Shown piece by piece: positions 1 through 40,430 of a stretch of 56,886 nucleotides of DNA. The notes under the pieces are model-generated. The model worked only from the letters and a program-made list of their open reading frames with translations. It did no database searches and had not been told where the DNA came from. This DNA comes from an uncultured virus (IMG/VR IMGVR_UViG_3300033066_001236) (taxonomy: Duplodnaviria; Heunggongvirae; Uroviricota; Caudoviricetes), in the IMG/VR virus record IMGVR_UViG_3300033066_001236. One strand, written 5' to 3'. The position numbers and the translations under genes are program-made. The first letter of the stretch is position 1, and each line of letters opens with the position of its first letter.

Positions 1-884
1 GAGGCAGGGTACAAGGCTGTTATGGGAATATTGGGATACAGCGCTGAGAACTTCTCCTGGTTATAGGACCTTGTCCGAGCTATGTAGCCCCCGGTTATGT
101 ACTCCGGAGTTGCACCATCGCCCAATGTAATGTTCAGCCTGGTGTACTTGATAGGCTGGGCATATATCAGGTTCTGAATTATTCCGAAGATACCGATCGC
201 CATTGCACTGTTGATCGCCATTGTCTGGTCGAGATCCGCGCAACTCAGGGTGGTCTCCGCCTTCATATCCACGTAGTACTGCATATCTAGGGGTATGAAG
301 GGAATATCGACGTCCCCCGGGAGACCTCTGGGCCAGGTAAGCAGGTCACGTGCAGTGAGGGAATCTATATCGGGTTTTTCCAGATGTGAGACCACGATCT
401 GTCCGAAGTCGTTTTCATTCCCTGAGTCGATCAACATTATGTTTCGGACTCGGCCTCCTTGCTGGCTGTACATCAGTAGATTGCTCAGGATGTGACGACG
501 CGCTTCCGGAGAGTCAACACACATGATCACCACAGAGTTGTTGATGTGTCTGCTAAACGCTGCCTCCATGTTGGGTTTGGTACCCATTGCTCGGAAAGCC
601 TCGACTCTCTCGACAACAGGTATGATTGGGATGTTGAAGGCCCTGGAGTACCGTTGTGCCAACACAGTGGCCTTAGGTTTCCCCACGTCCGTTGCGATAA
701 AGTTTTGGCGCAGGAGGTTCTTTTCCTCGACGACGTCGTCGTCAACAATGGTGATTTCCGGATTCAAGATCCATGCGCAGGTTTTCAGGAACTGGGCTAG
801 CAGGGGGACCAAGCGGGAACCCGTGCCGCCACCGCCTATGATGAGGTACTTGTTGGGAATGTACGTAGAACGATAATTGATCAT
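1..884 (-). CDS. ThiF/E1-like adenylating enzyme, PRTRC-type (3' end runs off the window)
   Basis: Absent from the ORF track because it has no stop in the window. Manual translation from ATG 884: MINYRSTYIPNKYLIIGGGGTGSRL...IVDDDVVEEKNLLRQNF...GKPKA...MCVDS...LIDSGNE...LSCAD. These are the GxGGxG nucleotide-binding loop, the NLxRQ motif and a candidate catalytic Cys at 242-240. Confidence 0.9.
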   Translation of the reverse strand, partial: MINYRSTYIPNKYLIIGGGGTGSRLVPLLAQFLKTCAWILNPEITIVDDDVVEEKNLLRQNFIATDVGKPKATVLAQRYSRAFNIPIIPVVERVEAFRAMGTKPNMEAAFSRHINNSVVIMCVDSPEARRHILSNLLMYSQQGGRVRNIMLIDSGNENDFGQIVVSHLEKPDIDSLTARDLLTWPRGLPGDVDIPFIPLDMQYYVDMKAETTLSCADLDQTMAINSAMAIGIFGIIQNLIYAQPIKYTRLNITLGDGATPEYITGGYIARTRSYNQEKFSALYPNIPITALYPA

Positions 885-933
885 GGGATCCCTTGGGGTA
901 AAAAGAAAGAGAAGGAGTACACTGTACTCCTCT

Positions 934-942
934 CTTATACCG
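934..942 (-). promoter_or_regulatory. GGTATAAG promoter-like motif upstream of the ThiF gene
   Basis: Minus strand reads CGGTATAAG, followed immediately by a GGAGTAC-A-GT-GTACTCC hairpin (about 913-931). Confidence 0.6.
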
Positions 943-965
943 TAAATACGAGTTTTAACGAAAGG

Positions 966-1943
966 TTAGAAGCCGTTTGTTTGGAGTTTCATCTGGCCGT
1001 CCTCGCTCAGCATGTGATAGGCCGTCCGGATTATGTCCAGAAGTCCCTTGTCACAACCCTGCAGTTCAGGCAGGACGCTGTCTACTAACGAATAAGTATC
1101 GGCTACGGTTTTGCCGAACTCCATGAGAAACTCCTCATGAAAAGGGCTAGTATTCTCCGGAAAGGGGGAACCCAGGCGGGGCCCCACTGGATCTTGCTGT
1201 TCCTCCGGGTCGTCTTGCCCTTGTTGTGCTGCAATTACTGACGCGGCAATCGCTTCACCCAGAGTCTCCAGGTTTTCTGATTGCATATACGCCCCTCTCG
1301 CGATCACCGCAGTATCGGGTTCCGCGTCAGGATCTTGACCAACCGACTTGAGCCATGCTGTAAGCTTGGCGTCGTGCTCCTCTACTTCAGAAGGACCCAT
1401 TGGATCGATGAGATCCTGCAGCTTTTTTGCGACGTCCCGCTTTTCCGGAGCTTGCTGCGTCGTTCCGGCGGGACCTACGTTTTTTGGAGTCACCGACCCT
1501 TCGTAATTGTCTGCCATAGCTCCAGCCATATTTCCCCACACGTCTTCCATGTTTGGAAACATCGGGGCTGCCGGGCCACTGGCTCCACCCTCGCTGGTTT
1601 TGTTGGCGGCCGGAGTGCTCGGAGACCACTTAGCAGGGTTTTGGGGGGTAGCCCCTACCTGCATTCGATCCCGAAAGTACTGACCGTACTGGCTCAGGTT
1701 GGTGCCTTGATAACCCTGGTGGGTTTGCACCTCGACTTGGTCAAGCCATTCCGACGGTATGGTTACCTCCGTATTCATTTCAAAGATGTCCTTGAGGTCA
1801 ACCTTCGTCTTGTGGTCGTGCAGGTTGAATCTCATGGTCCATTCGTAGGCGTTGTCGGTGATCTTACCCACAACCCCTGAATAGTAAATCCCCGTTCTGT
1901 CGTTGTTGTCATCAGTGCCACTGAAGAAAGCGCCCATGGTGTT
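966..1943 (-). CDS. JAB/MPN+ metalloprotease (PRTRC protein A-like), exon 2
   Basis: Begins NTMGAFFSGTDDNND, completing the HSH-x-x-M-x-AFFS-x-TDD JAB motif started in exon 1. Ends in a long low-complexity tail. Confidence 0.88.
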   Translation of the reverse strand, partial: NTMGAFFSGTDDNNDRTGIYYSGVVGKITDNAYEWTMRFNLHDHKTKVDLKDIFEMNTEVTIPSEWLDQVEVQTHQGYQGTNLSQYGQYFRDRMQVGATPQNPAKWSPSTPAANKTSEGGASGPAAPMFPNMEDVWGNMAGAMADNYEGSVTPKNVGPAGTTQQAPEKRDVAKKLQDLIDPMGPSEVEEHDAKLTAWLKSVGQDPDAEPDTAVIARGAYMQSENLETLGEAIAASVIAAQQGQDDPEEQQDPVGPRLGSPFPENTSPFHEEFLMEFGKTVADTYSLVDSVLPELQGCDKGLLDIIRTAYHMLSEDGQMKLQTNGF

Positions 1944-5172: not shown

Positions 5173-6834
5173 ATGGAAAACCTACCAAATCACATACCCT
5201 TGAAAGAGGGGCCCATCCGGGTGACGACCTCACAGCTAGCCAAGGCCCTAATCCATCTAAAGGGTAAGCCCCTTGACTTGATCGACTACTTGCCGATGAC
5301 TGAGGTGTACGACTGCGACCCTCCGAAGATGACAGTCAAGGCGTCTAGACAGGTAGGTAAGTCCGCAGGGTTAGGTGCGATTCTGACTCTGAAGGTTATA
5401 GCCATCCCCTACGTTACGGCCATCTACATAGCGCCGCTTGCGACTCAGACATCTCGATTCAGTACCTCTTATCTGGATCCGTATCTGAACTCCCCAATGG
5501 TCAAGAAGTACTTCCGGGACACAAACTCCAAGAAGAACGTATTTGAGAAGAGTTTGAGCAACAGTTCCGTCATCTACTTGACCTATGCCGAGACTGCTCA
5601 AGACGCTGACCGAGTCCGGGGGATTCCCGGGGACATAGCCATGTACGATGAGGTACAGGACATACAACACGACACTCTAGGTATCGTGAACGAAGCTTTG
5701 TCCGCCTCCAAGTTTGGCTGGGTCAAGCACTTTGGTACCGCCAAGACGGAACACAACACCCTAGAGGTTCTTTTCAAAGACAGCAACGGTCTTGAATGGT
5801 GTATCAAGTGCCCCCACTGCGGCAAGTGGAACGTTCCGGACAATCACGACACTTGTATCCGGATGTGTTCCGGCAAAGAAGGCCCGGTGTGTTCTCACTG
5901 TTACAAGCCGGTTGATGTAAGACAGGGGCGTTGGGTAGCAGCTAGACCCTGGAAAACAAATCACTACGGATTTCACGTACCTCGTTTCATTATCCCGGAA
6001 CGGTGTACGCCTAAGTACTGGGCCGACATTCACGAGAAGATAGAGAAGTACAAACCGTCCCTTCTGGATAACGAAGTCTTTGGCTTGGCCTCGGGCATTG
6101 CGGGCCGGATCCTATCCCAACGAGAGGCCATGGTTTGCTGCAACACGAACAAAACTCAGTTTGACAAGGGATGGCCTCAGGATTCACGGGGCATCTGCTC
6201 CGTGGTGCTAGGGGTCGACTGGTCCGTTACTGCTGGGGTGGCTTCGTACACCGTTATCACGATACTGGGGTACGACTACATGGGTAAGTGCTATGTGTTG
6301 TACTCGGAGAGATTGAACGGTATTGACATCTTGGATCAAGTACGAAGGGTGGAGCAGTTGGCTTTGCTGTACAACGTTCAGATGGTAGGGAGTGACCGTG
6401 GGTGCGGACAGTTACAGTTCGAGTTGCTAAGGTCCTCCCTCGGGGCGGACAGGGTAATACCGATTCAGTACTGTGCGGCCAAGCAAAGGTTGCGCTACGA
6501 CCAGGCCGGGGGCTACCTTGCGGCGGATAGATCCCAGATAATGGACTTGGTCTTCCTCAAGATGAAGCTTGGGGTGGACAAGTTTGAGACCCCTGCATGG
6601 AGCTTGATGGAGAACTTCTGGTCTGACGCCCTATCCATCTACGAGGAAGAATCCATATCAGGTCGAAGACTATACCGCAAGGACGACGGATCTACGGATG
6701 ACTGGTTTCATTCGGTGGTTTTTGCTCATACGGCCTGGATGTGCGTGTCAGGACAGTTCGACATACGAGACCAAATGCTTTATTCTCAAGAGGAAGAGCA
6801 AGGGTTCCCGTTCTTTGAAGGGCAGGGTAACTAA
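5173..6834 (+). CDS. Terminase large subunit (GpA-like)
   Basis: Walker A variant KASRQVGKS, Walker B MYDEVQD, CPHC...CSHC zinc ribbon, and RNase H-like VLGVDW and DDWFHS. Confidence 0.85.
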   Translation: MENLPNHIPLKEGPIRVTTSQLAKALIHLKGKPLDLIDYLPMTEVYDCDPPKMTVKASRQVGKSAGLGAILTLKVIAIPYVTAIYIAPLATQTSRFSTSYLDPYLNSPMVKKYFRDTNSKKNVFEKSLSNSSVIYLTYAETAQDADRVRGIPGDIAMYDEVQDIQHDTLGIVNEALSASKFGWVKHFGTAKTEHNTLEVLFKDSNGLEWCIKCPHCGKWNVPDNHDTCIRMCSGKEGPVCSHCYKPVDVRQGRWVAARPWKTNHYGFHVPRFIIPERCTPKYWADIHEKIEKYKPSLLDNEVFGLASGIAGRILSQREAMVCCNTNKTQFDKGWPQDSRGICSVVLGVDWSVTAGVASYTVITILGYDYMGKCYVLYSERLNGIDILDQVRRVEQLALLYNVQMVGSDRGCGQLQFELLRSSLGADRVIPIQYCAAKQRLRYDQAGGYLAADRSQIMDLVFLKMKLGVDKFETPAWSLMENFWSDALSIYEEESISGRRLYRKDDGSTDDWFHSVVFAHTAWMCVSGQFDIRDQMLYSQEEEQGFPFFEGQGN

Positions 6835-8984: not shown

Positions 8985-10121
8985 ATGAGCACCTTATACG
9001 AAAGTCTACTGGACCTGGTTCAAAGTAACCCAGCGTTCTACTATCAGGATTACGGCAACTACCGGGTATTCAACTACCGGCTAGCTCGATATTCTGATTT
9101 TTTAGCACCGAATGCCCTTGAGGCCCGAGGGATTACTTTTTACATTCCAAACCTGGAAACCTCCACTGATCCAAACGATGCGGTCTTAGTCTCTCGCCCA
9201 TTCAAGAAGTTCTTTAATCTGGGGGAAAATCCCTTCACCATAGGGCTGGACACTCGGCAAGAAAATTGCATCGGGGTGTGGGAGAAGGAAGACGGCTCAA
9301 TGATCTCTTCCTATATCGATGTACCCACTGGCCAACTCAGACTAAAGTCTAAGCAGAACCTATATTCTGTCCAGAGCAACTTGGCGAACGAAATCATCAA
9401 TCGTTCTGAGAACATAGGCTTAAGACACGCGGTTTACAGTCTTGCGCTTTTCGGCCTCACCATAATCTTTGAATTGGTATCGCCAGCCAATCGGATTGTG
9501 CTAGAGTACCCTAAAACAGAACTTCGACTATTAGGTGCCCGAAGCAACTCCACCGGGGTAACCTATAGTCCGGAGGAAGTAGTCAAGCTCGATAGTAGAT
9601 TGGCATACTACAGCCCCCTACGCCCCCCTTTTATTAGCCCAGACTTGGTTCCAAAGATGACAGGCATAGAAGGGTACGTATACACGTTTCTAAGAGACGG
9701 TGAGCCTGTAATGACCAAGGTGAAAACTGACTGGTACATATCACTACACCATCTGAAAGATTCTGTTAACACACCGCGTAGACTCTACGAGGCTATCATC
9801 TTCGAAACTATCGACGATGTGAAGAACATGTTTGCTACGGATCCTTACAGTATCTCTAGAATTGAACATATGGAGTCAAAAGTTATACCCCTGTATAACG
9901 ACATGATTTCAAAGGTAGAAACCTATCATCGACTGAACAAGGATCTATCTCGAAAAGATTACGCTATCAAAGGACAAGCCGAACTTGGACCACTTTTTAG
10001 CCTAGGTATGAACGCCTACCTTGGTAAGCCTGCTGGATACCAAGAATTTGCCATCAAACACATGTCCGACTACTTCGGAATTTCTGCATCTGACGACCCT
10101 TACTCTACAGAGGATTCTTGA
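8985..10121 (+). CDS. RNA ligase 1 (T4 Rnl1-like)
   Basis: ARGITF, SRPFKKFFNLGE, motif I KEDGSMI, FELVSPANRIV, EGYV, KVKTDWY. Confidence 0.92.
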   Translation: MSTLYESLLDLVQSNPAFYYQDYGNYRVFNYRLARYSDFLAPNALEARGITFYIPNLETSTDPNDAVLVSRPFKKFFNLGENPFTIGLDTRQENCIGVWEKEDGSMISSYIDVPTGQLRLKSKQNLYSVQSNLANEIINRSENIGLRHAVYSLALFGLTIIFELVSPANRIVLEYPKTELRLLGARSNSTGVTYSPEEVVKLDSRLAYYSPLRPPFISPDLVPKMTGIEGYVYTFLRDGEPVMTKVKTDWYISLHHLKDSVNTPRRLYEAIIFETIDDVKNMFATDPYSISRIEHMESKVIPLYNDMISKVETYHRLNKDLSRKDYAIKGQAELGPLFSLGMNAYLGKPAGYQEFAIKHMSDYFGISASDDPYSTEDS

Positions 10122-16522: not shown

Positions 16523-17139
16523 ATCTAAGACCAGATAGTAAAAAGGTAGAATCTGCGAGAACAAAGGGCTTCTTGCTAGTAGGGTCTACGTACTCCCTGT
16601 TGACCAGCTCAACTCCTTCAATACAACCCGATTTCTTGTCCCATCTAGGGCAGTGTCTCAAACTCGCCAAGGACTTGGCGGCGGACTTTGGCATAGAAGC
16701 TTTCATGCCTCAAAACTTTGAGCAAGCGTGGACTGGTTTTACTCCGCCGGGAATAGAGTTGGCTCAAGCTCAGCTAATAAAGAGCTCTACAACCATTTGG
16801 ATTACGGCCAAGGCCTATCCAGAAACAGTGGAGGAATATGGCATACAATATGACCTCTATCAATACCTAGCAACCCTGTACGCGTATCACCAATCAATCA
16901 TGGATACCATTATGACCACAACAGCCGCCGCCGATTCCCTGCAAGTAGGGGCTCGTTACAAACGACGCGATGGATCAATAGTCTTGATCACTTCTAAGCA
17001 CGACGGGCTATACCCTTACAAGGACGAGACGGGTAATTCGTACTTGGCAAGCGGCCGTTATCAACTGCCGACGTACGCTGATTCTCCGCTAGATATCATG
17101 GAAAGAGTAATCGATGACGAGACGACTAGTAACTCTTAG
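16519..17139 (+). CDS. Hypothetical protein
   Basis: 206-aa ORF coupled to both neighbours. Confidence 0.6.
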   Translation: MNLRPDSKKVESARTKGFLLVGSTYSLLTSSTPSIQPDFLSHLGQCLKLAKDLAADFGIEAFMPQNFEQAWTGFTPPGIELAQAQLIKSSTTIWITAKAYPETVEEYGIQYDLYQYLATLYAYHQSIMDTIMTTTAAADSLQVGARYKRRDGSIVLITSKHDGLYPYKDETGNSYLASGRYQLPTYADSPLDIMERVIDDETTSNS

Positions 17140-18244
17140 GACGGTATCCGCTCTGACGCCTATAGAAGGAGCGGATCGCATCGAGCTGGCTACTGTAGAC
17201 GGATGGCAGTGCGTAGTAAAGAAGGGGGAGTTCAAAGTAGGAGAACGGGGACTCTATTTCGAGATAGACTCGTTCTTACCCGCCTCCGACTCTCGGTTTG
17301 ACTTCTTAGCGAAAGAGAAAAAATGCTGGAAGAATAGAGAAGGCTATCGCCTTCAGACCCGGCGGTTCCAGAAACAGCTATCACAAGGTTTGCTGAGACC
17401 GCTGTCGGAATTTCCTGAAGTCAAACAGAGGTATTTTTCCGATACAGACTACGCGGATCTTCTGGGGGTGGTCAAATGGGAGCGGGACACCGAGACCGTC
17501 AAGGTGCCGAAGAAGAAGACTTGGCTAAGCAAGGTGGTATCCAAGTACAAGCACACCCGCCTGCGGCCTTTTCTTCTGTGGCTAGAAGTCCGATTTCCCT
17601 CCTGGTTTGCTAGAGAGGCGACGCGTCCATTCCCGAGGTTTGTCCCTAAGACGGACGAAGAGAGAGTACAGAACTGCCTTGCCCGCCTAGTAACCTACCG
17701 AGATCTAGGAATTAGGTTTCACAGAACGGTGAAACTCGACGGGTCTTCCATGACGGTCTACTATAATCGAGGCAAGGTAGGGGTCTGCTCCAGAAACCTA
17801 GATCTCAAAAAGGACAAGGACAATGCATTCTGGTCCGTAGTCTTAGGTAACAACCTAGACAAGGCCCTTAAGAAGCTTGGTCGAAACATAGCGCTCCAAG
17901 GGGAACTGATGGGGCCAGGAATTCAGAAGAACCGAGAGAAATTGTCAAAGCTAGAGTACTACCTGTTTAAAGCCTATGACATCGATAGTAACAACTATCT
18001 TTCACGGGACGAACGCTCGGCTCTTGTAGCCGATCTGCGACTTGCAGGAGCTACTCTGTATCAAGTACCCAGTCTGGGCGTAGACGACCTATCAAAGTTT
18101 CCGTCAATAGCGGAATTTCTAGCTTTTGCGGAAGGGGCCTCTCTTAATGCCGAGACCCGAGAGGGCGTAGTCTTTGAGTCAATGGATGGGGCGTTTAGCT
18201 TCAAAGTAATAAGTAACAGCTATCTTTTAGAAAAAGGGAATTAA
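17114..18244 (+). CDS. RNA ligase (DRB0094/Rnl2-related) with N-terminal OB-like domain
   Basis: PIEGADRIELATVDGWQCVVKKGEF, SQGLL, KTDEERVQN, motif I KLDGSS, QGELMGPGIQ, EGVV, FKVIS. Confidence 0.9.
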   Translation: MTRRLVTLRTVSALTPIEGADRIELATVDGWQCVVKKGEFKVGERGLYFEIDSFLPASDSRFDFLAKEKKCWKNREGYRLQTRRFQKQLSQGLLRPLSEFPEVKQRYFSDTDYADLLGVVKWERDTETVKVPKKKTWLSKVVSKYKHTRLRPFLLWLEVRFPSWFAREATRPFPRFVPKTDEERVQNCLARLVTYRDLGIRFHRTVKLDGSSMTVYYNRGKVGVCSRNLDLKKDKDNAFWSVVLGNNLDKALKKLGRNIALQGELMGPGIQKNREKLSKLEYYLFKAYDIDSNNYLSRDERSALVADLRLAGATLYQVPSLGVDDLSKFPSIAEFLAFAEGASLNAETREGVVFESMDGAFSFKVISNSYLLEKGN

Positions 18245-19091: not shown

Positions 19092-19400
19092 TAATGTACA
19101 GGGAGGTGACCGTAAAGCCAGTAATCTTCCTGTGCTACTTTCTGCTCGGAACCTTCGTCCGGTCAGAAAGCCTCCGGCCCAAGTTTGTTCTGTCCAGACT
19201 TACTAAATGACAATCAGGTAGCGCTGTCCTCCCGGTCAGCGTTAGACAGACCTCTGTCAAAACGAAATACAAAGCCGACCCTCAAGATGGCTGAGAACGA
19301 GACTCAGTGCCCACAGCGATGTGGTGATCACCTTCGCCCCGGTCAGCCCGGCCGGAGCGTAGGAAACAAGCGTAGTGATACTCGAGGGGCGCACTTATTC

Positions 19401-19476
19401 CGCGCAATAGATCAGTTGGTAGATCGCTGGGCTCATAACCCGGAGGCCGTAGGTTCAAGTCCTACTTGCGCAACCA
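19401..19476 (+). tRNA. tRNA-fMet(CAU)
   Basis: C1:A72 mismatch, GGG/CCC anticodon stem, CTCATAA loop, encoded CCA. Confidence 0.93.
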
Positions 19477-19535
19477 ACGAAAAGAGAATGAGTTCAAGCC
19501 CTCAAATTCTCTTTTTACAAACCCAGATGGTAATC

Positions 19536-19544
19536 TGGTATAAG
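19536..19544 (+). promoter_or_regulatory. TGGTATAAG promoter-like motif for the tmRNA
   Basis: Directly upstream of the tmRNA acceptor piece. Confidence 0.65.
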
Positions 19545-19652
19545 AACCATGTAGGAGGAGCTTCGGCTTTTCCTGCTGGCGGAAGGGTCATTCGTGGCCT
19601 TCCAATGATCGTAAACTTTCCTTGAAGAACGTTTCTCGGACGCGGGTTCGAT

Positions 19653-20289
19653 TACGAAAGTTAGTCGACTCAGGGGGCGACCCCTGATGAATAAAAGTGG
19701 CTCAAACGGCGAAAGCGTGAAAACGTAACACCGTACCAAAACCGACAGGCAACTTCGGCGACGGTCTAGAGACTTATAGGGTGTCTACCCCAAGTTCAAC
19801 AAAACTTGGCACGACATCACTAGGATGGAAGAAATCGATTTCGAAAGCATGTTTAGCCTTTGTCTGGGCCTCAGAGTACTTTCCGTTTCGCACGGTAAGC
19901 CCCTTATAACGCTCAGTCAGCAACAACATGCGTCGCTTCTTTTCGGGCTCTTGTATGTAGGGTAAAAGCTTACTGATAGCAGTCAATGCTTTGTCGTTAG
20001 CGATTTTCCAACTATACGATTGTTTGTGGTGGGCTTTGTATACCTTATGAGTACTTATGTGACCTCCAAAAGTCGTCACGTAGAGCTCTAACAGGTTAAG
20101 GGACGTGCTAGACATAGAAAGAACCGGGTAACGAAACATTAAGTTGTTCGCCCGGGTACACATCGTCACCGTTCCCTCACCATCAAACAGCCCTGCTAAA
20201 TAAGCTAATCGTAATTGTTCTTCCATAAATGCCACTCTCTCATGGTTGAGATATTACCATGAGATGAAGGAATAGTCCACAGAAGTGTG
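19653..20289 (+). mobile_element. Group I intron (637 nt) in the tmRNA T-loop
   Basis: Exon UCGAU pairs with intron GUCGA (U.G splice pair). Terminal G present. Core motifs: AAACGGCGAAAGC, ACACCGUACCAAA, GGUCUAGAGACU, GAAUAGUCC. Removal restores the 7-nt loop TTCGATT. Confidence 0.88.
19774..20226 (-). CDS. Single-motif LAGLIDADG homing endonuclease, antisense inside the tmRNA intron
   Basis: AYLAGLFDGEG...FGGHI...SYSWKI...KLLPYIQEPEK. ATG at 20226, or GTG at 20235. Confidence 0.9.
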   Translation of the reverse strand: MEEQLRLAYLAGLFDGEGTVTMCTRANNLMFRYPVLSMSSTSLNLLELYVTTFGGHISTHKVYKAHHKQSYSWKIANDKALTAISKLLPYIQEPEKKRRMLLLTERYKGLTVRNGKYSEAQTKAKHAFEIDFFHPSDVVPSFVELGVDTL

Positions 20290-20898
20290 TCCCGCCAGCT
20301 CCACCATGGGGGGCTGCCAGGTTTCGACGTGGAATAAGTACGCTTTGAAAGCGATCCGGCAGACGAACGCCGTAAATGTAGTAAAACCACAAATGCCAAC
20401 GATGAGTTTGCATACGCCCGCCGCGCCGCCTAAAAACGGCTGCGGCACCTGACTAGACTCTTCGGGGTTTAGTTAGTGCGGAGTGTTTCTGGTACGGTTA
20501 GCTTGGCAACAGAAGCCCTAACGGGTAAACCGTACTACCAAATTTTGGCAACCTGCGAAGCAGTCCGGAGAAGAATACGGACAACCCCTGACGACGGGGG
20601 ACGGAGCAAATTCGTCGTTGACTGACTGGGGGTTCGTACGAGACCGACACCAAGCGGCTTCTCAAGCCCCTAAACGCCGGCTCAGCGGGTACAACCACTG
20701 ACACACCGGCCTCTGAGGGCCTCAGTTCATTCCTTATTATGAGACCGAGGAGTTCCGGCGGGTATACGTCATCTTAAATCAATGATGTGTCTCTGCCTGT
20801 ACCCCTTCGCAGGACCTGCCTATCTCTGGGCCGTTCGGCCCGACCGCTATGGGTGTGAGCGGTTCAATATCACACCCAAATCCATCGAAGGAATCTTC

Positions 20899-32538: not shown

Positions 32539-32745
32539 ATGTTGATTAACAGCGTTCTCTGGCTCCTGATGTGGGCCGCGTTTGGGGCCTTGATGGGCTG
32601 GGCTGGATGGGGCATTTTCGTTCCTGGGTTGCTCCTCGGGCTCGTTGTTGCCACCGGCTTCCTCATCTTCTACTGGCTGTCTACGACTGGTGACAAGGTA
32701 CTGGACGAGCTCTTTGGGTCTACGGACCCCACTAAGGGGAAATAA
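32539..32745 (+). CDS. Small membrane protein
   Basis: Two hydrophobic segments. Confidence 0.6.
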   Translation: MLINSVLWLLMWAAFGALMGWAGWGIFVPGLLLGLVVATGFLIFYWLSTTGDKVLDELFGSTDPTKGK

Positions 32746-33773
32746 TGTACACCCTACTTTCCCGGGATGAGTTCCGAGAGGGGGTCTTCGCCAGAGACAA
32801 GCACACGTGCATTTTGTGTGGAGCCCCGGGGCAAGATGCTCATCACATAATGGAGCGTCGGTTATGGCCTGACGGAGGTTACTACTTAGCCAACGGGGCT
32901 ACGGTTTGTGGCCCCTGTCACATCGCTTGCGAACAGACGCTGATCTCCCCAGATACCCTGTGGGACAAGATCAAGGTCAACGAAAGATTCCTACCGCCGC
33001 ACCTCTATACTGACCAAGAATACGACAAGTGGGGGAACCCCGTTCTAGCGAGCCGACTAAGAACCCGAGGGGAGTTGTTTGACGACCCGAGTGTTCAAAA
33101 GGTTCTAAAAGAAGGTGACGTGCTGTCTCTTTTTACCCACTATGTGAAGTACCCAAGAACCTATCATCTGCCTTGGTCTAGGGGCGTTAACGATGACGAC
33201 AGAATAATGGAATCTCGTTCTGGTTTCGAAGGCCGTCGGGTAATAGTGACGGAGAAAATGGACGGGGAAAATACTTCGATGTACTCGGATTATTTTCACG
33301 CTAGAAGCGTTGACGGTCGAAACCACTCATCGAGAGCCTGGGCTAAACAACTTTGGGGCAGGATCATGGGAGACATCCCGGAGGACTGGCGAGTTTGCGG
33401 TGAGAATTTATACGCCCAACATTCGCTTACCTATAACAATTTGCCATCGTACTTTATGGGCTTTTCCATCTGGGACGAAAGTAACGTGTGTCTAGACTGG
33501 GATGACACTCAGTCGTGGTTTCTACTGCTTGGAATCACGTCAGTACCCGTGCTGTATGACGGTATCTACGACGAAGCTTTGCTGAGAAAGTTGGCTGATA
33601 GCCTGGACCCCAGCGTATCGGAGGGCTATGTGGTGAGAGTAGCCGACAGGATTCCCTACTCGCAGTTTAGACACACCGTTGGCAAGTATGTCAGGGCCAA
33701 TCACGTTCAGACAGCCAAGCATTGGATGCACGGTCAGAGAGTCGTTCCCAATCAACTTGCCGCCAAAGTATAA
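32745..33773 (+). CDS. HNH-like domain fused to an ATP-dependent RNA ligase
   Basis: N-terminal CILCG..DAHHI..NGATVCGPCH; C-terminal KYPRTYHLPWS, TEKMDGEN, CGEN, EGYVVR, KYVR. Confidence 0.85.
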   Translation: MYTLLSRDEFREGVFARDKHTCILCGAPGQDAHHIMERRLWPDGGYYLANGATVCGPCHIACEQTLISPDTLWDKIKVNERFLPPHLYTDQEYDKWGNPVLASRLRTRGELFDDPSVQKVLKEGDVLSLFTHYVKYPRTYHLPWSRGVNDDDRIMESRSGFEGRRVIVTEKMDGENTSMYSDYFHARSVDGRNHSSRAWAKQLWGRIMGDIPEDWRVCGENLYAQHSLTYNNLPSYFMGFSIWDESNVCLDWDDTQSWFLLLGITSVPVLYDGIYDEALLRKLADSLDPSVSEGYVVRVADRIPYSQFRHTVGKYVRANHVQTAKHWMHGQRVVPNQLAAKV

Positions 33774-37672: not shown

Positions 37673-37961
37673 GTGTCCTTAGCTCAGTTGGATAGAGCAA
37701 CAGCCTTCTGAAATTTCGGGCCTCTATGAGGAAACTTGTAGAGTGTAACTGGTCAAACTCAGGGAAGCCTAAGTGGTCCGCATTCTAACGAATGTCCATA
37801 AGGTAATCCTGAGCCAAGCCCGGGTAAAACCGGGAAGGTGCAGAGACTTGACGGCCAGGATCTAACGCGAAAGCCATGATCAAGAGAAAGTCCAAGGAGT
37901 GGCGAAAGTCACACAAACTTGAAGCTGTGGGTCGGGGGTTCGAATCCCTCAGGACACGCCA
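37673..37961 (+). tRNA. tRNA-Arg(UCU), intron-containing (exons 37673-37709 and 37922-37961)
   Basis: Spliced anticodon arm ACAGC-CTTCT|AA-GCTGT; GTGTCCT/AGGACAC acceptor; CCA. Confidence 0.93.
37710..37921 (+). mobile_element. Compact group I intron (212 nt) after anticodon position 36
   Basis: AAACUCAGGGAAGCCUAA, AAUCCUGAGCCAAGC, GAAGGUGCAGAGACU, GAGAAAGUCC, terminal G. Confidence 0.93.
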
Positions 37962-39456: not shown

Positions 39457-39599
39457 GGCTAAAGCCCAGAAGAGGTCTAGGGCCTCTTTTTAGCTCAATA
39501 CGCCAGAACGTTTGTGGTATAAGATTATTGAGAAGATAACTTGTTTCGGCGAGGATCTGATCGTGGGACTATAGCTCAATGGTAGAGCGGAGAACTCAT

Positions 39600-40364
39600 C
39601 AACCGTTGCATCTTGGTTCGAACTGTAGTAAAATACAGTTTAATCAGGAGAATGCGGATGTCAACTAAAAACAGGCGAGTTGTTAACGGGTATGTTTTGC
39701 TTTACAGGCCGGACCATTTCAATTGTTTCTCTTCCTCCGACTGGAAGGGATACGTGTATGAGCATCGGTATGTTATGGAGCAACACTTAGGTAGAGCTCT
39801 AAGTTCCACAGAACTAGTGCATCACTTAGATTGCGACAAAACAAACAACCAGTTGAGTAACTTGATTGTTCTGTCCCGAGCTGACCACGTCAAGCTGCAC
39901 GGATGGATAGACAATGGTGCCCCTATATGCGAAAGCTATAGGGAGAACGGGGTGAATTCAGGGAAAGCTAACCCTTCAGGTAGAGTTTGTCAAGTGTGCG
40001 AAGGTAGTCTATCTTCAACTCAAAAACAGACTTGTAGTAGAACTTGTCATAACCAACATCTGGCCCGCGTTAGCAGAAAAGTAGAACGACCTTCGTTCGA
40101 ACAACTGACTGAAGACTACAAAAACTTATCGATCGTCAAGATTGGTAAAAAATACGGAGTCTCTGACAACGCAGTCAGGAAGTGGATGGCGGGTTACCTC
40201 AAAGGCATGTCAACCCTGAGCCAAGCCGATGATACATCGTCGGAAGGTGCAGAGACTAGTGGAGGGGTTCAGTCCCCTTAATAACCACATTAGCGCCCCG
40301 GTCCCTAACGTAAAGTCGAGGGATGTGAGATAGTCCAGGGAGTACAGAAATGTACACAAACCGG
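39600..40364 (+). mobile_element. Group I intron (765 nt) with HNH homing endonuclease
   Basis: IGS GUG (39916-18) lies before P2 CCCUAUA/UAUAGGG. Core: GAAUUCAGGGAAAGC, AACCCUGAGCCAAGC, GAAGGUGCAGAGACU, GAGAUAGUCC. Terminal G. Confidence 0.92.
39658..40281 (+). CDS. Intron-encoded HNH homing endonuclease with C-terminal zinc finger/HTH
   Basis: YVYEHRYVME...VHHLDCDKTNN..SNL...HVKLH; CQVC..CSRTC; IGKKYGVSDNAVRKW. Confidence 0.9.
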   Translation: MSTKNRRVVNGYVLLYRPDHFNCFSSSDWKGYVYEHRYVMEQHLGRALSSTELVHHLDCDKTNNQLSNLIVLSRADHVKLHGWIDNGAPICESYRENGVNSGKANPSGRVCQVCEGSLSSTQKQTCSRTCHNQHLARVSRKVERPSFEQLTEDYKNLSIVKIGKKYGVSDNAVRKWMAGYLKGMSTLSQADDTSSEGAETSGGVQSP

Positions 40365-40430
40365 AATTCTTTGGTTGCAGGTTCGAATCCTGCTGGTCCC
40401 ACCACACATTTTCAACTTCGGAGAATCACG

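What the first reader, a model, noticed from the sequence alone, without database searches (positions are those of the whole stretch)
19653..20289. Group I intron in the tmRNA T-loop carrying an antisense LAGLIDADG endonuclease
Seen: a 637-nt insertion between TTCGAT and TCCCGC, with P1, P7 and a terminal G. An intact ~150-aa LAGLIDADG ORF lies on the opposite strand between the two P7 strands. Known: a T-loop group I intron has been reported in a clostridial one-piece tmRNA. Phage intron endonucleases are more often HNH or GIY-YIG and usually in sense orientation. Inference: a permuted, intron-split, endonuclease-bearing tmRNA needs both splicing and cleavage to mature. The endonuclease might also cut intronless ssrA of competing phages or the host.
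Basis: partly seen in the sequence, partly recalled or inferred. Interest (0 to 1): 0.85.

Follow-up and report, generated by a model that had tools for sequence, protein, structure and literature searches.

The report
Intron-split two-piece phage tmRNA gene
A phage carries a rearranged, two-piece version of the ribosome-rescue RNA gene (tmRNA) that is also interrupted by a self-splicing intron holding a DNA-cutting enzyme gene on the opposite strand; every part is known, but this combination is not in the literature searched and standard gene finders miss it.

Summary
Window 19653-20289 (637 nt) splits the T-loop of a permuted (two-piece) tmRNA gene on a phage contig. ARAGORN calls the tmRNA (tag ANDEFAYARRAA*) only after those bases are removed.

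The insert is a group I intron with P1-P9, including P7.1 and P7.2. It has -1 U paired to G in P1 and a terminal G. P3 covaries across 15 homologues: 90 of 90 cells pair, with 10 variants.

An intact 150-aa single-motif LAGLIDADG gene (19774-20226, minus strand) fills the P7.2 loop. Its model matches I-CvuI, I-MsoI and I-CreI.

It belongs to the published family of tmRNA T-loop position-7 introns (PMC11915505). Its HEG is 55-60% identical to antisense HEGs in seven gammaproteobacterial tmRNA introns; contigs of two are in that paper's seed list.

What that paper and my searches do not report is this intron in a permuted tmRNA gene, or in a phage. I found four more probable permuted cases, including the cultured Pseudanabaena phage PA-SR01, where the region is unannotated.

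Splicing itself is not shown. Verdict: real, and a new variant of a known kind.

The parts
19535..19547 (+). Promoter-like extended -10 motif upstream of the tmRNA gene
   Evidence: The motif recurs 5 times on the + strand of the window with up to 2 mismatches; shuffles give a mean of 1.22, and 1 of 100 reaches 5. The same motif stands upstream of the L037 tmRNA. A promoter role is inferred.
19577..19652 (+). tmRNA exon 1: 5' part of the acceptor piece, ending with the T-stem 5' strand and T-loop nt 1-6
   Evidence: ARAGORN places the tmRNA* start at 19577 after intron removal. Rfam model positions 1-35 align to 19607-19641. GAUCG at 19607-19611 is complementary to CGAUC at 20352-20356.
19653..20289 (+). 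Group I intron (637 nt) at T-loop position 7
   Evidence: Helices: P1 19648-52/19664-68 with U.G at the splice site; P2 19670-87 (GNRA loop); P3 19696-701/20231-36; P4 19706-09/19731-34; P5 19715-26; P6 19735-37/19763-65; P6a 19742-58; P7 19769-74/20274-78; P7.1 19777-19822; P7.2 19825-33/20218-26; P8 20238-64; short P9 20278-89; terminal G 20289. Profile hits E 1.9e-25 and 5.9e-5. P3 covariation.
19774..20226 (-). Homing endonuclease gene: single-motif LAGLIDADG, 150 aa from ATG (153 aa from GTG at 20235)
   Evidence: ORF. 63 homologues at E <= 0.001. The AGLFDGEG motif is invariant in 36 aligned sequences. The profile hits I-MsoI (1.6e-7) and I-CreI. AlphaFold model pLDDT 91.2; the best Foldseek hit is I-CvuI and every listed row is a LAGLIDADG endonuclease. 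The start codon is the antisense of the P7.2 3' strand. The conserved FFH codons are the antisense of the P7.2 5' strand.
20249..20257 (-). Extended -10-like motif (TGnTAnnnT), antisense of the P8 loop, about 30 nt upstream of the endonuclease ATG
   Evidence: Found in the window and in L037, and in 0 of the 7 other HEG-bearing introns examined. The consensus sigma-70 scan found no promoter here. Weak; inferred only; coordinates approximate.
20290..20306 (+). tmRNA exon 2, start: T-loop nt 7, T-stem 3' strand, acceptor 3' strand, discriminator, encoded CCA (20304-20306)
   Evidence: The acceptor pairing includes G3.U70 (read from the sequence).
20307..20309 (+). 3-nt linker between the acceptor piece and the coding piece
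   Evidence: Rfam aligns it to a consensus loop of about 27 nt.
20310..20524 (+). tmRNA coding piece: 5' acceptor strand from G20310; tag reading frame 20395-20433
   Evidence: ARAGORN gives the end of tmRNA* and the tag ANDEFAYARRAA*. Translation checked. Rfam beta_tmRNA 55.1 bits, below its cut-off of 84.

Best explanation
This is a phage-encoded, circularly permuted (two-piece) tmRNA gene. Its acceptor piece is interrupted, between T-loop nucleotides 6 and 7, by a mobile group I intron of the known tmRNA T-loop family.

Shown by sequence and comparison:
- the intron boundaries, which restore the T-arm exactly;
- a full P1-P9 core with the P3/P7 pseudoknot and the P7.1/P7.2 extension;
- -1 U paired to G in P1, and a terminal G;
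- an intact I-CreI-like LAGLIDADG gene on the opposite strand, filling the P7.2 loop.

Inferred mechanism. The precursor is transcribed from about 19550. The intron folds, using T-loop nucleotides UCGAU as the exon strand of P1, and splices itself out with guanosine. The ligated exons then form the T-arm. tRNA-processing enzymes cut at G20310 and trim the 3-nt linker back to CCA, giving two RNAs held together by base pairing. These act in trans-translation and add the tag ANDEFAYARRAA.

The endonuclease is probably made from its own minus-strand transcript. It would cut intron-less tmRNA genes at the T-arm site, so that repair copies the intron in (homing). The DNA around the T-loop through CCA is contiguous in both gene forms, so the same element can move between standard and permuted tmRNA genes.
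For: - Intron removal gives a callable tmRNA in 7 of 8 related loci and in none of the 8 unspliced. Four are permuted and three are standard.
- RNAalifold on 8 cores independently returns the T stem across the insert, plus P2, P3, P4, P6a, P7.2 and P9.
- Folding each segment separately gives the same hairpins in each sequence, with different letters and GNRA loops.
- P3 pairs in 90 of 90 cells over 15 sequences with 10 variants. Slid controls pair in 33-53% of cells.
- A profile built without the window hits both halves of the insert.
- The intron 5' cores share their layout and conserved blocks with seven gammaproteobacterial tmRNA introns, at 53-56% identity. The contigs of two of these (L123, L124; accessions) appear in the seed list of the published tmRNA_intron model.
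- PMC11915505 (abstract, passages, section 12 part 1) reports 883 intron-form tmRNAs. Most are at position 7, with -1 U and terminal G. LAGLIDADG genes occur in 36 of 883; among the 23 HEG-bearing of the 844 founding sequences, 19 lie in the P7.1 region.
- Endonuclease evidence.
- The locus as assembled recurs in public runs from 8 studies. Contigs of 10-18 kb in three runs filed as RNA span the whole stretch with 4 differing letters, and a 1.6-kb contig of a DNA-type run covers most of it.
Against: - No RNA-level evidence of splicing was obtained.
- Rfam Intron_gpI does not hit the insert even at E <= 10. It also hit 0 of 8 other position-7 family members at E <= 0.001. Its seed held no bacterial introns, according to 10.1101/2020.01.27.920355 (passages).
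- P9 in the window is only a 4-bp hairpin that includes the terminal G, against 5-7 bp in the seven other members of the phage-side group. No P10 pairing is evident.
- The window protein alone scores below Pfam's cut-off (21.8 against 23.1 bits).
- The consensus scan found no promoter for the antisense gene.
- One family member (L038) has A, not G, at the last intron position, so the boundary rules are not universal.
Confidence: 0.85

Rival explanations
1. The intron is homologous to the family but no longer splices, or splices poorly, so this tmRNA gene is a dead or dying copy kept only as the home of a selfish element.
For: P9 is minimal and P10 is not evident. No splice junction was seen. 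tmRNA is dispensable for many phages; the closest cultured relatives by terminase (Salmonella phage Arash, Vibrio phage D181) have no permuted-tmRNA match.
Against: All core helices, the P7 element with its bulged A, the U.G pair and the terminal G are intact. The exons keep the T stem, G3.U70, encoded CCA, and an open tag frame with a stop. The endonuclease ORF is intact and keeps every invariant family residue. L037 holds the same arrangement with compensated helices, which argues for long-term selection on the structure.
Confidence: 0.08
2. The insert is never spliced. The gene yields a three-piece tmRNA, or the pieces are joined by a protein ligase (the phage encodes three RNA-ligase-like proteins).
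For: The gene is already expressed in pieces. RNA-ligase-like genes lie at 8985-10121, 17114-18244 and 32745-33773.
Against: A T-arm assembled from two RNAs would rest on 5 base pairs alone. The insert has a complete, covarying ribozyme core, which needs no such explanation. Homologous inserts sit at the same site in one-piece tmRNA genes of bacteria.
Confidence: 0.03
3. Assembly artefact or chance resemblance.
For: None found.
Against: Independent contigs from several studies carry the same arrangement. Profile E-values are 1.9e-25 and 5.9e-5. A 99%-identical protein is on a separate contig in the protein collection (P0001).
Confidence: 0.01

Closest known systems
Group I introns in the T-loop of standard (one-piece) bacterial tmRNA genes (883 sequences in PMC11915505; first described in 2002 according to that paper's reference 11)
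   Same: Same site (T-loop position 7), same boundary rules, same core with P7.1/P7.2, and alignable sequence.
   Different: The host gene here is the permuted, two-piece form and sits on a phage contig. That paper lists standard, permuted and intron as separate forms, with no permuted-plus-intron class (Table 3).
HEG-bearing tmRNA introns of gammaproteobacterial MAGs (for example JAIFMS010000144.1 and WBUJ01000039.1, in the seed list of the published tmRNA_intron model)
   Same: Intron length 640-650 nt against 637. Antisense LAGLIDADG gene in the P7.1/P7.2 region, 55-60% identical in protein. The conserved FFHPS C-terminus overlaps the conserved RNA element.
   Different: One-piece tmRNA in a bacterial chromosome. 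The intron 5' core is only 53-56% identical.
Permuted two-piece tmRNA (Alpha- and Betaproteobacteria, Cyanobacteria; Rfam RF04321)
   Same: Order acceptor piece - linker - coding piece. Scores above the Rfam cut-off. ARAGORN calls it tmRNA*.
   Different: The linker is only 3 nt, and there is an intron in the acceptor piece. 31 of 31 viral permuted tmRNAs fetched by an exon-2 pattern have no intron.
I-CreI / I-MsoI / I-CvuI single-motif LAGLIDADG homing endonucleases
   Same: Motif, size, alpha-beta-beta-alpha-beta-beta-alpha fold.
   Different: 12-24% sequence identity in the listed structural alignments. Encoded antisense to its host RNA gene. Target and activity untested.
I-DirII in the Didymium rDNA group I intron (PMC3073962, passage read)
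   Same: A homing endonuclease gene on the antisense strand of an intron in a structural RNA gene, expressed from its own promoter.
   Different: Eukaryotic, and expressed through a Pol II promoter, a spliceosomal intron and a poly(A) tail.

Membership tests
tmRNA T-loop group I intron | The insert lies in the T-loop, and its removal restores the T stem and a 7-nt loop | tested here: met
tmRNA T-loop group I intron | -1 U paired with G in P1; terminal G | tested here: met
   U19652 pairs with G19664; G20289 is the last intron base.
tmRNA T-loop group I intron | Group I core (P3-P9, P3/P7 pseudoknot) supported by covariation | tested here: met
   P3 pairs in 90 of 90 cells with 10 variants; slid controls 33-53%. 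P2, P6a, P7.1, P7.2, P8 and P9 form in each sequence with different letters. RNAalifold agrees. P7 is invariant, so it says nothing either way.
tmRNA T-loop group I intron | Sequence homology to published members | tested here: met
   Shared layout and conserved blocks with L123 and L124, whose contigs (accessions) are in the seed list seen; core identity 53-56%.
tmRNA T-loop group I intron | Match to a group I covariance model (Rfam RF00028) | tested here: not met
   No hit at E <= 10. The model also missed 8 of 8 other family members. The published tmRNA_intron model could not be run here.
tmRNA T-loop group I intron | Self-splicing | not testable with these tools
   The contigs of the RNA runs show no joint, which is uninformative.
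Permuted (two-piece) tmRNA | Acceptor piece ending in CCA lies upstream of the coding piece; tRNA-like domain pairs; tag frame present | tested here: met
   RF04321 69.2 bits against a cut-off of 47. ARAGORN tmRNA* with tag. G3.U70 and CCA read from the sequence.
LAGLIDADG homing endonuclease (single-motif) | LAGLIDADG motif with a conserved acidic residue | tested here: met
   AGLFDGEG is invariant in 36 sequences.
LAGLIDADG homing endonuclease (single-motif) | Pfam family match above the curated cut-off | tested here: inconclusive
   The window protein scores 21.8 bits against 23.1. At E <= 0.001, 27 of 36 family members match PF14528 and 17 of 36 match PF00961.
LAGLIDADG homing endonuclease (single-motif) | Alpha-beta-beta-alpha-beta-beta-alpha fold | tested here: met
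   Model pLDDT 91.2. 86 PDB matches at E <= 0.001; all listed rows are LAGLIDADG enzymes.
LAGLIDADG homing endonuclease (single-motif) | Dimerisation and site-specific cleavage of the intron-less allele | not tested

The most novel reading that the evidence does not exclude
The phage-borne intron and endonuclease form an active element that shuttles between phage and bacterial ssrA genes, whatever the gene form. During infection the enzyme cuts the host's (or a co-infecting phage's) intron-less ssrA at the near-universal T-arm site. This would damage host ribosome rescue or seed the intron into the host, while the phage's own interrupted copy is immune and still yields tmRNA by splicing. Phages would then be the vehicle that spread tmRNA introns to 21 phyla.
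Probability: 0.15. Interest if true: 0.8.

Novelty: new variant of a known kind. Interest (0 to 1): 0.55.

Why it matters
- **Annotation.** These genes are invisible to ARAGORN (0 of 8 called unspliced). Rfam sees them only in part, so phage tmRNAs are undercounted. The cultured phage PA-SR01 carries one that neither its GenBank record nor its paper mentions.
- **Mobility.** One intron family occupies both one-piece and two-piece tmRNA genes, and both phage and bacterial genomes. This fits homing guided by the T-arm-to-CCA DNA, which is contiguous in both gene forms.
- **RNA maturation.** This RNA would need ribozyme splicing followed by tRNA-type cleavage into two pieces. That ordering can now be tested in PA-SR01 and its host.
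- **Enzymes.** The endonucleases presumably recognise one of the most conserved sites in bacterial genomes.

Tried and rejected
- **Rfam Intron_gpI on the insert.** No hit. Judged insensitive, not negative.
- **RNA evidence.** Four runs filed as metatranscriptomes hold the stretch. The three laid contain 10-18 kb contigs across the whole locus and no joints. Contigs cannot show a rare spliced form, and DNA may be present in these libraries, so this says nothing about splicing.
- **Single-protein search of IMG/VR with the endonuclease.** No relative found. The alignment-based search worked.
- **Closest isolates by terminase** (Salmonella phage Arash 50% identity, Vibrio phage D181 43%). Neither has a permuted-tmRNA match, so there is no orthologous empty site there.
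- **BLAST of intron-less viral tmRNA loci against the window.** Only tmRNA-level similarity.
- **Alignment-based pair counts.** The MAFFT alignment with the full inserts (A1) misplaced the 3' core. Column-wise pair counting on A3 failed for the variable hairpins, and my P4/P6 indices in that script were wrong. I replaced this with anchor-based per-sequence analysis. I built no covariance model and did not use the count of structure pairs.
- **Literature.** Search one search was mis-set (min_terms 1) and gave nothing useful.
- **Supplement.** Supplementary Table S2 of PMC11915505 (forms by taxon) was not visible in the held text. It could show whether any phage or permuted entry carries an intron.

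Full report
**Context.** The window is a phage contig. It holds a large terminase gene (5173-6834), a ribonucleotide reductase gene, a helicase gene and three RNA-ligase-like genes. It also holds 18 tRNA genes and two Rfam-scored group I introns elsewhere. No whole genome is held for it. The closest isolates by terminase are Salmonella phage Arash (50% identity) and Vibrio phages of about 187 kb. Near-identical DNA occurs in wastewater, activated-sludge, riverine and freshwater runs of 8 studies.

**The observation.** The sequence reads ...GGGTTCGAT up to 19652 and TCCCGCC... from 20290.
- ARAGORN finds no tmRNA in the window.
- After in-script removal of 19653-20289 it calls a permuted tmRNA with the tag ANDEFAYARRAA*. 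The unspliced control gives none.
- Rfam tmRNA_permuted scores 69.2 bits (cut-off 47) at 20250-20433, but has to delete the T-arm columns.
- The true 5' part aligns weakly at 19607-19686. The betaproteobacterial-type model is the best of the three older models, though below its cut-off (55.1 against 84 bits).
- The acceptor piece ends in an encoded CCA (20304-20306). Three bases later the coding piece starts at G20310. The tag frame is 20395-20433.

**Is the insert a group I intron?** Rfam's Intron_gpI model does not hit it even at E <= 10, so I looked for relatives.
- A distant BLAST against phage records gave one hit, a 75-nt stretch of Pseudanabaena phage PA-SR01 in an unannotated region.
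- Reading that region showed the same situation. A permuted tmRNA has its T-loop split, at the same internucleotide position, by a 227-nt ORF-less insert.
- Pattern scans built on two conserved blocks gave three IMG/VR contigs and three metagenome contigs.
- In these eight loci, window included, removing the insert makes ARAGORN call a tmRNA in 7 of 8. Four are permuted: the window, L032 (PA-SR01), L034 and L035. Three are standard: L033, L036 and L038. None of the 8 is called unspliced.
- The eighth, L037, is not called by ARAGORN. It has CCA, a linker and a 5' acceptor strand downstream, and a sub-threshold permuted-tmRNA match of 40 bits.

**Structure.**
- RNAalifold on the eight cores had the ORF-bearing loops of the window and L037 cut out in the script. 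It returned the T stem across the insert, plus P2, P3, P4, P6a, P7.2 and P9.
- Anchor-based, per-sequence folding gives the same hairpins in every sequence with different letters. GNRA loops cap P2 and P6a.
- P3 is long-range. The 6-mer directly upstream of the conserved J3/4-P4 block has a perfect complement directly after the conserved J7.2/3 block in 15 of 15 sequences (90 of 90 cells, 10 different strands). Sliding the partner by 1-3 bases gives 33-53% paired cells.
- P7 (GAGACU / AGUCC, with a bulged A) is invariant, so it neither supports nor contradicts the fold. From memory, it resembles the canonical guanosine-binding P7.
- The 5' splice site follows a U paired with G in P1, and the intron ends in G.
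- A profile built from the six ORF-less inserts, without the window, hits 19641-19829 (E 1.9e-25) and 20219-20281 (E 5.9e-5). The hits are colinear and bracket the ORF.
- The Rfam model's silence is not informative. It hit 0 of 8 other members of this family at E <= 0.001. A preprint notes that its seed held no bacterial introns (10.1101/2020.01.27.920355, passages).

**The ORF.** The minus-strand ORF is 19774-20235 from GTG. It probably starts at the ATG at 20226, giving 150 aa.
- Alone it scores just under Pfam's LAGLIDADG_1 cut-off.
- It has 63 homologues at E <= 0.001 among 73 candidates.
- The motif AGLFDGEG is invariant in 36 aligned sequences.
- At E <= 0.001, 27 of 36 match PF14528 and 17 of 36 match PF00961.
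- The family profile hits I-MsoI (1.6e-7) and I-CreI.
- An AlphaFold model (pLDDT 91.2) has the alpha-beta-beta-alpha-beta-beta-alpha order. It matches 86 PDB chains at E <= 0.001, and every row listed is a LAGLIDADG enzyme.
- PHROGs labels its family (phrog_5046, E 5e-22) as 'HNH endonuclease'. The fold contradicts that label.
- The gene is fitted into P7.2. Its ATG-GAA-GAA is the antisense of the P7.2 3' strand, and its conserved F-F-H codons are the antisense of the P7.2 5' strand. Its tail runs through P7.1, and the stop codon overlaps the last base of the P7 5' strand.

**Relation to what is known.** PMC11915505 (abstract, passages, section 12 part 1) describes three tmRNA gene forms: standard, permuted and intron.
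- It gives the -1 U and terminal G rule.
- LAGLIDADG genes occur in 36 of 883. Among the 23 HEG-bearing of the 844 founding sequences, 19 lie in the P7.1 region.
- The text does not state their orientation ('antisense' occurs 0 times).

An alignment-based scan of bacterial genomes found close homologues of the window's protein (55-60% identity) in seven gammaproteobacterial MAG loci. In all seven, and in one 275-kb IMG/VR contig (L039), the gene lies antisense inside a 640-672-nt position-7 intron of a standard tmRNA. The contigs of two of them appear in the seed list of the published tmRNA_intron model. Their intron cores share the window's layout and conserved blocks, at 53-56% identity over the P3-P7 part.

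So the window's element is a member of this published family, and the antisense LAGLIDADG gene is a family trait. It holds in 10 of 10 HEG-bearing position-7 members examined (window, L037, L039, L119-L125). An antisense homing endonuclease gene in a structural-RNA intron also has a eukaryotic precedent, I-DirII (PMC3073962, passage).

**What is not in print, as far as I could search.** Two things are missing: this intron in a permuted tmRNA gene, and this intron in a phage.
- Table 3 of PMC11915505 has no permuted-plus-intron class.
- The tmRNA Website paper lists introns and two-piece forms separately (PMC4383926, passages).
- The PA-SR01 paper does not mention tmRNA (PMC10286775, 0 occurrences).
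- Full-text searches (listings read) showed no such report.
- I could not see Supplementary Table S2 of PMC11915505, which breaks forms down by taxon.

Here the combination occurs in the window, in L037 (probably permuted; antisense HEG about 52% identical), and in PA-SR01, L034 and L035 (ORF-less). Standard-form tmRNAs with the intron also occur on viral-type contigs: L033 (164 kb), L036, L038, L039 and L173.

By contrast, 31 of 31 IMG/VR permuted tmRNAs fetched with an exon-2 pattern are uninterrupted. Three of them (L002, L007, L008) carry exactly the window's 32-nt ligated-exon site, so natural empty sites exist.

On a short core alignment, the eight pattern-fetched introns group apart from the bacterial ones. 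That group was retrieved with a shared motif, so the split is partly ascertainment.

**Mechanism.**
- Shown: the anatomy described above.
- Inferred from established knowledge of group I introns and of two-piece tmRNA (PMC11915505 introduction): transcription from a recurring extended -10-like motif at 19535-19547; self-splicing; then T-arm formation; then tRNA-type cleavage at G20310 and trimming of the 3-nt linker.
- Weakly inferred: the endonuclease is probably read from its own minus-strand transcript. An extended -10-like motif lies in the antisense of the enlarged P8 loop, about 30 nt upstream of the ATG, in the window and in L037 only (2 of 9 HEG-bearing introns). The consensus scan found nothing there.
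- Not tested: homing into intron-less tmRNA genes.

**RNA evidence.** Three runs filed as RNA carry the whole locus on 10-18 kb contigs and show no joints. This cannot speak to splicing.

**Verdict.** The finding is real, precisely placed and correctly read by the first stage. It is a new variant of a known kind: a known mobile intron and endonuclease in a host-gene form and a genome type where they had not been reported in what I could search.

Noticed in passing
window 37673-37961: A tRNA-Arg(tct) gene split in the anticodon loop by a 212-nt ORF-less group I intron. Rfam Intron_gpI scores 66.5 bits. The plain ARAGORN run missed this tRNA.
   Followed up: partly
window 39565-40404: A second tRNA-like gene with a 765-nt group I intron (Rfam 63.4 bits). 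The intron carries a sense-strand HNH endonuclease ORF at 39613-40281. ARAGORN calls it tRNA-Pro(cgg), which I did not verify. The phage therefore has three intron-split genes in its tRNA/tmRNA array.
   Followed up: partly
L126 1470-2270 (Acidobacteriaceae MAG): A homologue of the endonuclease (43% identity) stands free, on the same strand, directly upstream of an uninterrupted permuted tmRNA (Rfam 73.5 bits). The T-loop of that tmRNA differs from the usual target. This may be a free-standing homing endonuclease beside a resistant site.
   Followed up: partly
L128 1501-2368 (Rhodothermales MAG): An endonuclease homologue lies about 120 nt beyond the 3' end of an intact standard tmRNA, on the opposite strand.
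   Followed up: no
L038 905-1210: This family member, in a standard tmRNA, has A instead of G as the last intron base when the T-loop is restored. It also has a long extra 3' domain.
   Followed up: no
L175 ~880-1117 (minus-strand orientation as printed): A viral contig whose tmRNA T-loop seems to be interrupted after loop nucleotide 7 (position 8). PMC11915505 reports that subsite only from Saprospiraceae. This was read by eye.
   Followed up: no
window 19535, 29626, 35778, 50448, 52972 (+ strand): A recurring extended -10-like motif, possibly a phage promoter class. There are 5 matches against 1.22 expected.
   Followed up: no
L032 2465-2691 (Pseudanabaena phage PA-SR01, MT234670.1): This cultured phage has an unannotated, intron-split permuted tmRNA gene with tag AKNNICQFSRKAAPVAA*. 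Its paper lists only three tRNAs.
   Followed up: yes
window 19350-20750 in runs X1-X3: Libraries filed as metatranscriptomic RNA-Seq hold 10-18 kb contigs of this phage. This suggests phage DNA, or very long transcripts, in those libraries.
   Followed up: no
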